Below, one piece after another: positions 1,113-60,479 of a DNA stretch of 64,000 bases (its first letter is position 1; every line of letters begins with the position of its first letter). Location of the stretch: assembly GCA_963796455.1 (NCBI GenBank), contig CAWCLO010000001.1:896001-960000 (forward strand). Direction: 5' to 3'. Position numbers and translations under genes: made by a program. This DNA comes from Candidatus Sulfomarinibacteraceae bacterium. Lineage in GTDB: Bacteria; Acidobacteriota; Thermoanaerobaculia; Thermoanaerobaculales; Sulfomarinibacteraceae. The notes under the pieces are model-generated. The model worked only from the letters and a program-made list of their open reading frames with translations. It had not been told where the DNA came from and searched no databases.

Positions 1113-1139
1113 CGAATTCGGAATTCGGAATTCGGAATT
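1113..1139 (+). repeat. Heptamer tandem array (GGAATTC)n, ~4 units
   Basis: cgaattcggaattcggaattcggaatt just after the lysA stop. Confidence 0.9.
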
Positions 1140-1316
1140 TTCCATCGCACGCTGGCTTCCGGCTTCCAAAGCGATGCCGAAGGACCTCGGTTTCATCACC
1201 TTTCCCGGGGAGCGTTGGCGTACACGCGCTTGACGCCGCGCTCCGCTCAGGACAGCCGGGTACGGCCGGATCAACACCCGAAATGTGATGTTGTGAGAGT
1301 GTGACGTTGCGACGTC

Positions 1317-1350
1317 ATTCCGAATTCCGAATTCCGAATTCCGAATTCCG
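1317..1350 (+). repeat. Heptamer tandem array (GAATTCC)n, ~4.5 units, reverse complement of 1113-1139
   Basis: attccgaattccgaattccgaattccgaattccg. Confidence 0.9.
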
Positions 1351-1390
1351 CGCGCCGACGGGCGCGCAAGCTCCATGATATCTTCGCGCC

Positions 1391-57390: not shown

Positions 57391-60021
57391 TCAGCCCTCG
57401 TCCTCAGCCAGGGTCACAGTGATCGCAAAGCGTTCGTTTTCGTCTGCTTCGCCATCGGTCATCGTCAAACCACCCTCGGCGACATTGCCCGCCCGGCAGA
57501 CATCTTCGATCACCGGCTGTAAGGCGCTGCGGTCAGCTTCGGAGCCCATGATTTCCAGCGCCGCCACCGGCCAACGGAGGCTCTTCTGAGCGACTGTCTT
57601 GGCGCCGCGGATTGCGGTCATGACCGCAACTGCCGCATCGAAGGTGCTCTCAGCCTCGGGTTTTGCCACCGCCTGGAGTTCTGCGGTCACCGGCCACGGC
57701 GCGGTATGCACACTTTTGAATCGGTCCTCACTTGCAAAGCTCCAGGACCACACCTCTTCAGTAACAAACGGCAGGAAGGGGGCCAGCAGCCTCAGATAAG
57801 CGTTGAGACCCAGGCCGAGTGCCGCAAGGGCCGACCGGCGTCCCGGGGAATCCTCTTCGGAATAGGAGCGCAGCTTGACCAATTCGAGATAGTGGTCGCA
57901 GAACTGCCAGAAACTCTCCTCAACCACCTGCAGCACGGTGGCATAGTCAAAGGCCTCGAAGGATCGGGTGGCCTGGTCGATCACCTTGCGCAGACGATCG
58001 ATCAGGGCGAGATCAAGGGGCTCCACGATGTGCTCCGGTCCCGGAACCTCGCCGCCTGCGCCTTCGAGCTGCATGAGGACAAAACGACTGGCGTTGAACA
58101 CCTTCATCGCCAGCCTCTTGCCGACCTTGAAAACACCGGGATCAAAGGCGGTGTCGGTGCCGAGCCGGGCCCGGGCGGCCCAATACCGTACGGCGTCCGA
58201 AGACCACTCCACCAGCAGATCGTCCGGAGTGACCACGTTGCCCTTGGATTTCGACATCTTTTTGCGATCCGGATCGAGGATCCAACCCGAAAGGACCACG
58301 TGACGCCACGGGATCTCACCCTCGTGCATCCAGGCCTTGACGATGGTCGAAAAAGCCCAGGTCCGGATGATGTCGTGAGCCTGCGGCCGGATGTCCATCG
58401 GGAAGAGCTTGGCGTGGCGGTCGGGATCGATGCCCCAATGGCTCTGGATCTGCGGGGTCATGGACGAGGTCGCCCAGGTATCCATGACATCCGGCTCGGC
58501 CGAGAAGCCACCCGGCTGATCACGTTGGTCGGGCTGGAATCCCGGTGGGGTGTCGGTCAGTGGATCAACCGGCAGCGACGCCGGATCGGCATAGACCGGC
58601 CGCGCGAAGTCGGGTTCACCGTCATCGCCGACCTCGTACCAGACCGGAAAGGGCACTCCAAAATAACGTTGGCGGGAAATGCACCAATCCTGATTGAGCC
58701 CTTCCACCCAGTGCGTGTAGCGGGTCTTCATGTGGGCAGGGTGCCACTGGATCTTGTCGCCCTGGGCCAACAGCGCATCTTTGTGCACCATCGTCCGGAC
58801 GAACCACTGCCGGGTGGTCACGAACTCGAGCGGGCGGTCGCCCTTTTCGAAAAACTTGACGATCTGATCCGTCGGTTTCGGATCGCCGACCAGGGCCGTG
58901 CCCGACCAACCCGGCAGGCTCCCCTCCTCGGCAAGCAACTCGGCCACCCGCTTCTTGGCCTTGCTGATATACAGCCCGGCGATCTCGTCGTGCGACAGTT
59001 GTGCGAGCTCGACATCGACGCTTTCGAAGGGCGTCTCGCCAATGGTGGCGGGCAGCATTTTTCCGTCGCGGCCGATGAGCTGTTTGAGTGCCAGACCTGA
59101 TTGTTTCCACCACTCGACATCCATCGCGTCGCCAAAAGTGCAGACCATCAAGATGCCGGTCCCCTTGTCGGGATCAGCATGGTCGGCCGCGAGGATGGGG
59201 ACCCTCGCTCCATAAAGCGGTGTGATGGCGTACTTGCCGAAGAGCTCCTGATAGCGCTCGTCTTCAGGGTGGGCAACCACCGCGATGCAGGCACCGAGTA
59301 ACTCGGGCCGGGTGGTGGCGATCTGTAGTTCGCCACCGCCTTCGACACCGAATCGAAGATCGAAGAAGAGCCCCTGCCGGGGACGGTCTTCGACCTCCGC
59401 CTGGGCAACGGCGGTGTGGAAATCGATGTCCCACATGGTGGGGCTCTCGACGTTGTAGACCTCGCCCTTTTCCACCAGATCGAGAAAGCTCAGCTGTGAA
59501 ACCCGCCGACAGTGATCGTCGATCGTGGCGTATTGCTCCGACCAATCGAGCGACAGACCGAGATGACGCCAGAGATGCTCGAAGGCCTTCTCGTCCTCGG
59601 CGGTCACGATGCCGCAGGCCTCGATGAAGTTGCGCCGCGAGACTTCTTCGATCTCTTTGCGTTTGCCGCCCTTGGGGTCCGGCTTCCAGTCCGCGTCGTA
59701 CGGCAAATGGGGGTTACAACGGATGCCGAGCAGATTCTGGACCCGCCGTTCGGTGGGCAATCCGTTGTCATCCCACCCCATCGGGAATGCAATGTTTTTT
59801 CCCAACATCCGCTGGTAGCGGACCAACAGATCTTCGTGGGTGTATGAAAAAACATGACCGACGTGCAGGGAACCCGACACCGTCGGCGGTGGCGTATCCA
59901 CCACGAAGGTCTCCTCGCGAGGCCGCGAAGGATCCCACTTGTAGATCCCCCAGTCATCCCACTGCTGGCGCCACTTGTCCTCGATTTCGATGTGCTTGTA
60001 CTTCTTCGGAATCTCAGCCAC
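57391..60021 (-). CDS. valS: Valyl-tRNA synthetase (short type, no C-terminal coiled coil)
   Basis: DTPPPTVSGSLHVGH, GWDDNGLPTER, DWCISRQR, KMSKS; GGAGG SD before GTG 60021. Confidence 0.95.
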   Translation of the reverse strand: MAEIPKKYKHIEIEDKWRQQWDDWGIYKWDPSRPREETFVVDTPPPTVSGSLHVGHVFSYTHEDLLVRYQRMLGKNIAFPMGWDDNGLPTERRVQNLLGIRCNPHLPYDADWKPDPKGGKRKEIEEVSRRNFIEACGIVTAEDEKAFEHLWRHLGLSLDWSEQYATIDDHCRRVSQLSFLDLVEKGEVYNVESPTMWDIDFHTAVAQAEVEDRPRQGLFFDLRFGVEGGGELQIATTRPELLGACIAVVAHPEDERYQELFGKYAITPLYGARVPILAADHADPDKGTGILMVCTFGDAMDVEWWKQSGLALKQLIGRDGKMLPATIGETPFESVDVELAQLSHDEIAGLYISKAKKRVAELLAEEGSLPGWSGTALVGDPKPTDQIVKFFEKGDRPLEFVTTRQWFVRTMVHKDALLAQGDKIQWHPAHMKTRYTHWVEGLNQDWCISRQRYFGVPFPVWYEVGDDGEPDFARPVYADPASLPVDPLTDTPPGFQPDQRDQPGGFSAEPDVMDTWATSSMTPQIQSHWGIDPDRHAKLFPMDIRPQAHDIIRTWAFSTIVKAWMHEGEIPWRHVVLSGWILDPDRKKMSKSKGNVVTPDDLLVEWSSDAVRYWAARARLGTDTAFDPGVFKVGKRLAMKVFNASRFVLMQLEGAGGEVPGPEHIVEPLDLALIDRLRKVIDQATRSFEAFDYATVLQVVEESFWQFCDHYLELVKLRSYSEEDSPGRRSALAALGLGLNAYLRLLAPFLPFVTEEVWSWSFASEDRFKSVHTAPWPVTAELQAVAKPEAESTFDAAVAVMTAIRGAKTVAQKSLRWPVAALEIMGSEADRSALQPVIEDVCRAGNVAEGGLTMTDGEADENERFAITVTLAEDEG

Positions 60022-60376
60022 GCTGTTCCTCCGCTCCGGCAAAGGCGAATTCGGCATCCTCGACGCGAAGACGATCACGGGTGATCCAGCCTCCGACCTG
60101 ACCGGGCTCACCGAGGACCGCCGCGATCACCGAGAAGTCGTCGCCAAAGAGATATTTCTTTTCGTCATTTTCGAACATTGCCGAATCCTTGATCCACACC
60201 ACCACTCGCCCATCGTCGAGCTTTGCGGCATCGAGGGCGTTGGGAAGAAAGACCCGGATATCGGAATCGTCGCCGCGGACGATCATGATCGTCGAACCAC
60301 CAAACTCGGGGGGCCCGCCGTGCAGCCACGCATCGAGATCAGCCCTGTTCGTAACATCAACCAGCCACGGTCCCAT
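60014..60376 (-). CDS. Hypothetical protein, overlapping the valS start
   Basis: GGAG/AGGA SD before ATG 60376; 8-nt overlap with valS. Confidence 0.65.
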   Translation of the reverse strand: MGPWLVDVTNRADLDAWLHGGPPEFGGSTIMIVRGDDSDIRVFLPNALDAAKLDDGRVVVWIKDSAMFENDEKKYLFGDDFSVIAAVLGEPGQVGGWITRDRLRVEDAEFAFAGAEEQRG

Positions 60377-60443
60377 GTCCTGCTCTCCATTGTCGGGAAT
60401 CGTCGCGGAAACCAACCGCGACGTCGGCAGATGATAACACCCG

Positions 60444-60479
60444 GGAATTTGGGATTTCGGATTTCGGATTTCGGATTTC
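60444..60479 (+). repeat. Heptamer array (GGATTTC)n, ~5 units
   Basis: ggaatttgggatttcggatttcggatttcggatttc. Confidence 0.88.

What the first reader, a model, noticed from the sequence alone, without database searches (positions are those of the whole stretch)
1113..60479. Polarised 7-8 bp tandem arrays bracket intergenic gaps: G-form on the left, C-form on the right, whatever the gene orientation
Seen: about 20 short arrays with different units (GGAATTC, GGATTTC, GATGCTG, GGCTTGA, GGCTATG, GGGAGAAA; and GAATTCC, GAAATCC, CTAATTC, CTCATTC, CGAACTC, CTCCTCTG). On the + strand the G/purine-rich form sits toward the left of the gap (1113, 8011, 12811, 29250, 31212, 34515, 35633, 35746, 36768, 40862, 54969, 60444). 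The C/pyrimidine-rich form sits toward the right (1317, 29383, 34736, 36036, 40044, 40928, 49512, 53583, 55036). I found no clear exception, and the rule holds for tandem, divergent and convergent gene pairs. So the G-rich strand always runs 5'->3' away from the nearest gene into the gap, like two telomere-style extensions joined head to head. Units drift or switch inside one array (34515-34624; 55036-55096). Established: intergenic heptamer repeats are known (e.g. cyanobacterial STRR), but plain slippage does not predict fixed polarity across unrelated units. Inference: these are footprints of a dedicated repeat-adding or repair process, or of an element with tandem-repeat ends whose gene lies elsewhere in the genome.
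Basis: partly seen in the sequence, partly recalled or inferred. Interest (0 to 1): 0.82.

Follow-up and report, generated by a model that had tools for sequence, protein, structure and literature searches.

The report
Repeat arms of four-helix-bundle cassettes
The short 7-8-base repeat arrays between genes are real and face a fixed way, and the same repeats bracket small four-helix-bundle genes, so they are likely the two arms of a dispersed hairpin element rather than telomere-like additions, which would give a testable origin for the unexplained heptamer repeats of many bacteria.

Summary
Confirmed. All 21 listed arrays exist. Genome-wide, 523 of 640 intergenic 7/8-mer arrays are G-form left or C-form right, on both replichores and in all gene orientations. 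'No exception' is too strong: 117 break the rule, and 6-mers mostly reverse it.

The telomere-style reading is unsupported: no reverse transcriptase was found, and promoter-like motifs lie outside the pairs. The same units flank TIGR02436 four-helix-bundle (23S-IVS/Avd-like) genes as inverted arms. Each protein clade has its own unit. Arm direction read from other genomes' genes predicts the side in this genome (326 of 404). The usual gene-less unit is about 4 heptamers, a ~40-nt unique core and 4 inverted heptamers. It fills operon junctions that are gap-less in the sister family. This works like REPIN/RAYT, with a non-catalytic-looking protein in place of the transposase; how units are copied is not shown.

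The polarity itself is published for single units (Rehm 2015). I did not find the link to the gene family in print, but this scan noted it 72 times on other DNA.

The parts
1113..1350 (.). Matched gene-less pair: GGAATTC arm (1113-1139), 177-nt core, GAATTCC arm (1317-1350), between lysA-like and M20 peptidase genes
   Evidence: same arms with a homologous core in G001, other units at this site in other species
8010..8071 (+). Two G-form arrays (GGCTTGA, then GGATGCT) just after a terminator-like hairpin
12811..13180 (.). GGATGCT-type array followed by a gene-less copy of the IS4-ended four-helix-bundle cassette (end motif 12832-12850, inner repeat 12982-12999, degenerate 6-mer arm)
29249..29416 (.). 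Matched 8-mer pair: GGGAGAAA-type left (29249-29283), TCTCCCTT-type right (29382-29416)
31212..31620 (.). GGATGCT array (31212-31241) with a second gene-less copy of the IS4-ended cassette (end motif 31239-31257, inner repeat 31465-31482); its 6-mer array at 31335 is C-form on the left
34515..34758 (.). GGCTATR/GGCTGTG left arm with unit drift (34515-34624) and matching right arm (34736-34758) overlapping a stop codon; same unit family as the arms of the four-helix-bundle gene at C1:983116
   Evidence: one-unit length variant in another run
35632..36281 (.). Composite gap: GGATGCT-type array, 6-mer ATCGCT array, GGGAGAAA array, REP-like palindromes, one copy of a 36-copy mini-element (35979-36036) and an expanded CTCCTCTG right arm of about 30 units (36036-36281)
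36768..36857 (+). GGATTTC left arm, 12.6 units, starting 3 bp after a stop codon
39935..40077 (.). Inverted 9-mer pair resembling the arms of GxxExxY genes (39935-40026) and a C-form AATTCCT arm (40044-40077)
40862..40953 (.). Mixed pair: degenerate GGATGCT left arm at a stop codon and GAATTCC right arm (40928-40953); no stable hairpin predicted
49512..49548 (-). Solo GAAATCC array, G-form on the minus strand 7 bp after a stop codon
53583..53601 (-). Short degenerate C-form array between a minus-strand stop codon and its terminator-like hairpin
54969..55096 (.). Mixed pair: GGGAGAAA left arm, 34-nt core, two stacked right arms (ATTCCTC, then GAACTCC)
60444..60479 (+). GGATTTC left arm upstream of topA

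Best explanation
The arrays are likely the two inverted arms of small dispersed elements whose gene-bearing form carries a TIGR02436 four-helix-bundle protein; because such an element reads left-arm form, core, right-arm form on either strand, arm direction is fixed whatever the neighbouring genes do. Shown: the polarity; the same units as inverted arms around four-helix-bundle genes; one unit per protein clade; a stereotyped gene-less unit of about 4 units, a 36-44-nt core and 4 inverted units; its presence at junctions that are gap-less in the sister family. Inferred: the pentameric Avd-like protein binds its own 4-5-unit arm on folded single-stranded DNA or RNA and lets a host or trans-acting enzyme copy the unit, much as RAYT serves REPINs. 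Also inferred: selection confines insertions to the slot between stop codon and promoter; slippage lengthens arms; repeated occupation of a slot stacks units; loss of one arm leaves solos.
For: All 4 canonical four-helix-bundle genes of this genome have inverted arms; three match 7/8-mer families of the window and the fourth its 6-mer. In the order, 44 of 53 canonical loci from other genomes have an array on at least one side. Of 31 loci with arrays on both sides, 24 match in inverted and 3 in direct orientation. Unit follows protein: the nearest protein in another genome has a unit within one base in 21 of 44 cases, against a shuffle mean of 2.3 and maximum of 11 (tree). Left-arm forms taken only from other genomes predict the side here in 326 of 404 arrays, including 88 of 128 six-mers and 27 of 28 G=C-neutral heptamers. 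Three junctions of one ABC operon hold both arms in 38 of 46 genus instances; left and right arms co-vary (0.455 against 0.255 shuffled, maximum 0.43). Two of these junctions are nearly or wholly gap-less in the sister-family genomes read (7 of 7 and 6 of 7 readable); the third holds other array pairs in several. The sister family disperses the unit of its own gene instead (6 of 12 genomes; this genus's unit in 0 of 12). Outside the group, 8 of 10 fetched plasmid hits have inverted arms, one inside 23S rRNA. Rehm's table lists a four-unit array directly upstream of XCC0516. Fold: 2GSC and 2RLD TM 0.91-0.93, Avd 0.82.
Against: Most solo arrays show no partner: 47 of 264 have a degenerate inverted match inside the gap (control 7). 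Cores of matched pairs are not copies of each other (26 cores, best scores within the shuffled range), so recent copy-paste from one master is not shown. Only 8 of 111 close G-C pairs have identical units, and 31 differ by one base. No cognate gene was found here for the abundant GGATTTC and GGATGCT families, and none for GGGAGAAA among the order's loci sampled. G011 (95% complete) has arrays but no TIGR02436 match. No catalytic partner was identified, and binding was not tested. Co-inheritance alone can make unit follow protein, and kin are not independent. One plasmid locus has direct, not inverted, arrays.
Confidence: 0.68

Rival explanations
1. The arrays are host-selected signals (RNA hairpins, nucleoid-protein or translation-factor sites, G-quadruplexes) that hug stop codons in G-form, and four-helix-bundle genes merely lodge inside them.
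For: Position, arm number and core length are kept across a genus. 131 of 327 arrays whose G-form follows a stop on the sense strand start within 10 bp of it, against 4 of 344 of the other form. Arrays are enriched in convergent gaps (120 of 373, against 216 of 1324 tandem and 67 of 485 divergent). Published readings of similar arrays are regulatory. An IS4-ended cassette does target these arrays.
Against: The transcribed strand does not fold better (11 of 21). Units at one site differ between species and some species lack the pair. Most units lack three-G tracts. It does not explain one unit per protein clade or the reversed 6-mers. Later co-option is compatible with the best explanation.
Confidence: 0.17
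2. A dedicated enzyme adds G-rich repeats to broken or free DNA ends, telomerase-style, and two extensions are then joined head to head.
For: Unique cores, many solo arrays, mixed and stacked units, arrays starting at stop codons.
Against: No reverse transcriptase found. Six-mers and one heptamer family have the C-rich form on the left. Promoter-like motifs lie outside the right arm. Arm number peaks at 4 and core length at about 40 nt. Cores sit where the sister family has no gap.
Confidence: 0.05
3. The gene-less units are MITEs of an ordinary transposase (IS4-family or RAYT/TIRYT), and the four-helix-bundle gene is a passenger.
For: An IS4-family transposase element in G017 shares its ends with the ~65-copy cassette and also sits in heptamer arrays. 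Six Y1 transposase matches exist in the genome.
Against: That cassette lies inside arrays, often with the same form on both sides, so they look like its target. Polarity stays 386 of 469 away from it. The four Y1 loci read show no heptamer arms. The transposase was not found here with that query.
Confidence: 0.1

Closest known systems
GGGAATC / GGGGA(C/T)T heptamer repeats of Xanthomonas and Nostoc (Rehm et al. 2015, PMC4692102; seen: abstract, passages, first part of supplement 2)
   Same: Intergenic heptamers, mode of four units, G-form close to the ORF on its 5' side whatever that ORF's direction, no leading/lagging bias, convergent inverted pairs 21-135 nt apart in the rows read.
   Different: One unit family per genome there, more than a dozen units here. 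Read there as G-quadruplex formers of unknown role, with no link to a gene family in the passages I saw, though their table has an array abutting XCC0516.
REPIN/RAYT systems (Bertels and Rainey 2011, PMC3337134; seen: passages)
   Same: Inverted doublets of fixed orientation, non-identical spacers of restricted length, singlets as remnants, a few genes flanked by the repeat and many gene-less copies, family-specific pairing.
   Different: Arms are tandem 6-8-mers, not palindromes; the linked gene is a four-helix bundle with no known catalytic site, not an HUH transposase; hybrid pairs are common here and reported absent there.
ORF-bearing 23S rRNA intervening sequences, S23p / PF05635 (Warrier et al. 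2016, PMC4990558; seen: passages)
   Same: Same protein family, terminal inverted repeats, tandem heptamers upstream of the ORF; locus L179 is such an insert in 23S rRNA with G-left and C-right arms.
   Different: Here the cassettes and gene-less units lie between protein genes; excision by RNase III was not tested.
TAACTGA repeats of Beggiatoaceae (MacGregor 2015, PMC4679880) and paired opposite-strand 7/8-mer sites of Geobacter metallireducens (Aklujkar 2009, PMC2700814); seen: passages and supplement legends
   Same: Oriented intergenic arrays; opposite-strand pairs of three to five units; insertion sequences landing beside them (Geobacter).
   Different: Interpreted as regulator binding sites; no four-helix-bundle link in the passages seen.
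Avd of diversity-generating retroelements (10.1101/2023.10.23.563531; seen: two passages)
   Same: Same fold (TM 0.82); described as a positively charged pentameric barrel similar to S23 proteins.
   Different: Avd works with a reverse transcriptase; none was found in this genome.

Membership tests
TIGR02436 / PF05635 four-helix bundle (genes between the arms) | Profile match over cut-off | tested here: met
   70 of 73 matches over cut-off in this genome; PF05635 E 8e-31
TIGR02436 / PF05635 four-helix bundle (genes between the arms) | Four-helix fold as in 2GSC and 2RLD | tested here: met
   model pLDDT 95.7, TM 0.91-0.93
TIGR02436 / PF05635 four-helix bundle (genes between the arms) | Homopentamer | not tested
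   known for XCC0516 and Avd; no complex job was run
Xanthomonas/Nostoc-type polarised heptamer repeats | Intergenic, mode of four units | tested here: met
   689 of 723 intergenic; 587 of 848 TRF rows have 3-5 units
Xanthomonas/Nostoc-type polarised heptamer repeats | G-form near the 5'-side ORF, no replichore bias, convergent pairs | tested here: met
Xanthomonas/Nostoc-type polarised heptamer repeats | Three-G tracts able to form a quadruplex | tested here: not met
   most heptamer units have two G in a row or fewer; some 7- and 8-mers have three or more
REPIN/RAYT | Inverted doublet, fixed orientation, unique spacer of restricted length | tested here: met
   92 G-C against 5 C-G; 24 of 29 matched spacers are 26-57 nt with unique cores
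REPIN/RAYT | Cognate gene is an HUH/Y1 tyrosine transposase | tested here: not met
   arms flank PF05635 genes; the four Y1 loci read have no heptamer arms
REPIN/RAYT | Arms are short palindromes (REPs) | tested here: not met
   arms are head-to-tail tandem units
REPIN/RAYT | Excision of whole doublets in populations | tested here: inconclusive
   only low-depth contigs available; no joint removing a pair among those shown
23S rRNA intervening sequence | Located in an rRNA gene | tested here: not met
   window arrays lie between protein genes
23S rRNA intervening sequence | Excised from RNA by RNase III | not testable with these tools
   no RNA holder listed
Telomerase-like / RT repeat addition | Reverse transcriptase present | tested here: not met
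   0 PF00078 candidates, genome 90.5% complete
Telomerase-like / RT repeat addition | Universal G-strand polarity | tested here: not met
   6-mers follow it in 46 of 167
IS4-derived non-autonomous cassette (the ~65-copy element only) | Ends shared with a transposase-bearing IS4-family element | tested here: met
   L194
IS4-derived non-autonomous cassette (the ~65-copy element only) | Target-site duplication | tested here: inconclusive
   AT lies outside 147 of 195 ends; a 2-bp duplication and a blunt insertion cannot be told apart

The most novel reading that the evidence does not exclude
Four-helix-bundle proteins of the 23S-IVS/Avd family are the sequence-specific drivers of an undescribed, cross-phylum class of REPIN-like mobile DNA. 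Each pentamer recognises its own 4-5-unit arm and directs copying or targeted insertion without being a nuclease. This one system would explain bacterial heptamer-repeat excess, STRR-type arrays and ORF-bearing rRNA intervening sequences.
Probability: 0.4. Interest if true: 0.88.

Novelty: new variant of a known kind. Interest (0 to 1): 0.62.

Why it matters
Heptamer repeats are over-represented in many bacteria and have been read variously as quadruplexes, regulator sites or slippage products, with no agreed origin. The S23p/TIGR02436 family is widespread and has no known function. Tying the two together gives a direct test for both: named proteins paired with named units. This genus is a good test bed because it carries at least eight clade-unit pairs side by side. 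It would also make testable the old proposal that the IVS ORF serves mobility.

Tried and rejected
- Replichore explanation: rejected; the G-form is about half of arrays on both replichores.
- Purine-rich rule: weaker than the G-C rule.
- Strand bias in hairpin stability: none for the transcribed strand (11 of 21) or by replichore strand (10 of 29).
- One master core for matched pairs: not found.
- Long target duplications around the IS4-ended cassette: none beyond shared repeat units.
- Reverse transcriptase and the G017 transposase: not found in this genome. The only GIY-YIG match lies in a 668-aa open frame.
- Expression: no RNA holder listed, which is no evidence either way.
- A metagenome scan with the protein alignment could not run because the alignment was too divergent, so cross-phylum evidence rests on 10 of 26 plasmid hits.
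- One search folded a coding stretch by mistake and is not used.
- Mixed pairs at 40862 and 54969 do not fold better than shuffles; a matched pair does (z -5.7).
- Nine literature searches found no paper linking dispersed arrays to the gene family, beyond the heptamers noted inside the Coxiella IVS. Subscription papers are not covered.
- A residue-to-base code was not tested.
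Full report
Setting. The window is C1:896001-960000 of a 5.02-Mb, 10-contig genome, 90.5% complete. The best named hits of its topoisomerase are Acidobacteria/Thermoanaerobaculia MAGs at 63-67% identity, so that placement is an inference. No gene caller was available, so I wrote a dicodon-based one (4238 genes, 84% coding). It can misplace starts and misses some small foreign genes. Arrays were called with my own detector for periods 6-9.

Observation. All 21 listed arrays are present. The genome has 429 heptamer and 294 octamer arrays, 689 of 723 intergenic; the first Mb holds 203, against 2 in a Markov simulation. 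The G-form lies in the left half of its gap, or the C-form in the right half, in 523 of 640 cases (49 with G=C left out). With one array per gap it is 362 of 432; for solos between confident genes, 208 of 251. It holds on both replichores (399 of 472, 124 of 168) and in all four gene orientations. Neighbouring arrays run G then C 92 times and C then G 5 times. Arms sit close to stops (median 16-22 bp) and further from starts (87-90 bp). A contig of another run reproduces 34420-34769 with one unit fewer. Exceptions are real: 117 of 640, the six-mers (46 of 167 follow the rule) and one heptamer family (9 of 10 against).

What the arrays belong to. The genome has 73 TIGR02436 matches. Four are canonical, divergent genes, and each lies between inverted arrays: GAGGAGCA, GGCTATG-type, GGAATTA and the six-mer ATCGCT, whose left form is C-rich. 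I fetched 70 loci from the 31 genomes searched and set aside 15 of an expanded subfamily. Of the 53 remaining from other genomes, 44 have an array on at least one side. Of 31 loci with arrays on both sides, 24 match inverted and 3 match direct. Units sort by protein clade: GGATGC-type with one supported clade, GGAATTC, GGATTTC and GAATTTT with subclades of another, six-mers with a third (44 rows). The nearest protein in another genome has the same unit within one base in 21 of 44 cases (shuffle mean 2.3). Co-inheritance could produce this without binding. The decisive check was predictive: left-arm forms from other genomes' genes give the correct side for 326 of the 404 arrays they cover (of 874), including 88 of 128 six-mers and 27 of 28 neutral heptamers. 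The library lies within one base of 39% of random 6- and 7-mers, so coverage means little; direction is the test.

The gene-less unit. Matched close pairs have spacers of 26-57 nt in 24 of 29 cases, with C-rich starts and G-rich ends, and the cores are not copies of each other. In one ABC-transporter operon, three successive junctions carry both arms in 38 of 46 instances across 16 genomes. Typically they have four units per arm and a core of 36-44 nt, and left and right units co-vary more than in any of 5000 shuffles. In the sister family two of these junctions are nearly or wholly gap-less, and the third holds other units in the same direction in several genomes. At the window's 1104-1391 and cupin-GFA gaps, content turns over between species while a promoter-like motif stays outside the right arm. 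GGADTTC triplets occur in 18 of 18 genus genomes and 0 of 12 sister-family genomes. CCGTGGB, the arm unit of the sister family's gene clade, occurs in 6 of 12 and 0 of 19 (I chose that pattern from those loci, and kin are not independent). GxxExxY genes have nine-base inverted arms in the same manner (3 of 3 loci).

A second element. About 65 of the 73 matches are copies of one gene in an 840-893-bp cassette. Gene-less copies are mostly 400-630 bp, 69 of 156 loci hold the gene, and 53 reading frames open for at least 112 codons are 90% identical with pN/pS 0.18. It sits at AT in 147 of 195 ends, 125 of them in GGATGC-type arrays. The window's arrays at 12811 and 31212 are such sites. Polarity remains 386 of 469 away from this cassette.

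Mechanism. An inverted-repeat element reads the same on both strands, which accounts for the fixed direction with no special enzyme. The protein has the fold of XCC0516, BT0352 and Avd; Avd is described as a positively charged pentamer. Arm length peaks at four units (587 of 848 TRF rows have 3-5). I infer that the pentamer binds its arm and enables copying by another enzyme; neither step is shown. Against a simple picture: 217 of 264 solos have no close partner, many pairs are mixed, cognate genes for three abundant families were not found here, and G011 has arrays without a gene match. No reverse transcriptase was found. Conserved position across the genus and crowding at stops leave room for host co-option, but the transcribed strand does not fold better.

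What is known. Rehm et al. 2015 describe the same polarity, four-unit mode, lack of replichore bias and convergent pairs for GGGAATC in Xanthomonas; the polarity also holds for a related unit in Nostoc. Row 15 of their table is an array directly upstream of XCC0516, a link they do not draw in the passages I saw. MacGregor 2015 and Aklujkar 2009 report oriented or paired arrays as regulator sites. The Coxiella IVS has heptamers before its S23p ORF. An Azospirillum 23S insert has G-left and C-right arms. Of 10 plasmid hits fetched (of 26), 8 have inverted arms by eye, 1 a single arm and 1 direct arrays. REPINs are the closest working analogue, but membership fails on the transposase and the palindromic arm. 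Nine searches found no paper making the general link; subscription papers and unread supplements may bear on that. This scan has 72 earlier findings with these words. They are leads, not support; my four-helix-bundle reading dates.

Verdict. The feature is real and the polarity is a known pattern. The best explanation, arms of four-helix-bundle-linked elements, is well supported in anatomy and comparison, and untested in mechanism. Novelty: new variant of a known kind. Interest 0.62.

Noticed in passing
G000, 156 loci; window 12811-13180 and 31212-31620: A transposase-less cassette with IS4-type ends carries one four-helix-bundle gene in about 65 copies under purifying selection (pN/pS 0.18) and inserts at AT inside GGATGC-type arrays. 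Genus relatives also have many TIGR02436 matches (42-55 in two genomes).
   Followed up: yes
L194 (G017:C434): Autonomous IS4-family element (DUF4372 + DDE_Tnp_1, about 426 aa) with the same ends, itself inserted in heptamer arrays: a candidate repeat-targeting transposase.
   Followed up: partly
window 35979-36036; 36 copies in G000: Hybrid mini-element with a GGGAGAAA left arm, a conserved ~36-nt core and a CTCCTCTG right arm; unlike the matched pairs, its core is a true multicopy sequence.
   Followed up: partly
G000:C1:453963, 748392, 750134; window 36880-36897, 39935-40026: GxxExxY (PF13366) genes are flanked by inverted 9-mer arrays, and such 9-mers are dispersed with their own polarity: a parallel system with a nuclease-like gene.
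   Followed up: partly
window 56418-57366: Y1 tyrosine-transposase-like gene (56604-57227, minus strand) between palindromic repeats; the same palindrome occurs inside the gene-less cassettes at 12913 and 31528.
   Followed up: no
window 20818, 35826-35943, 36935: REP-like long palindromes beginning GTCATCCTGAGC sit inside array-bounded gaps; the only GIY-YIG match in the genome lies in a 668-aa open frame.
   Followed up: no
G000, seven ARAGORN tRNA-Asp calls of 90-95 nt (for example C1:256404, C10:275636): These calls lie inside copies of the expanded four-helix-bundle gene and are probably false tRNAs. One more 95-nt call (C7:143691) overlaps a partial copy.
   Followed up: no
window 31702-33865: TonB-dependent receptor split into two reading frames (plug and barrel parts overlap near 32460): frameshift or assembly error.
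   Followed up: no
L179 (NC_016586.1:14104-14967): Unannotated 23S rRNA intervening sequence with a four-helix-bundle ORF and inverted heptamer arms in Azospirillum lipoferum 4B.
   Followed up: partly
G000:C10:770619-777833 and C2:1-7218: 7.2 kb shared at 96% identity at a contig end; possible strain mixture or duplication. A further multicopy non-4HB repeat of 700-900 bp occurs on C1, C4 and C5.
   Followed up: no
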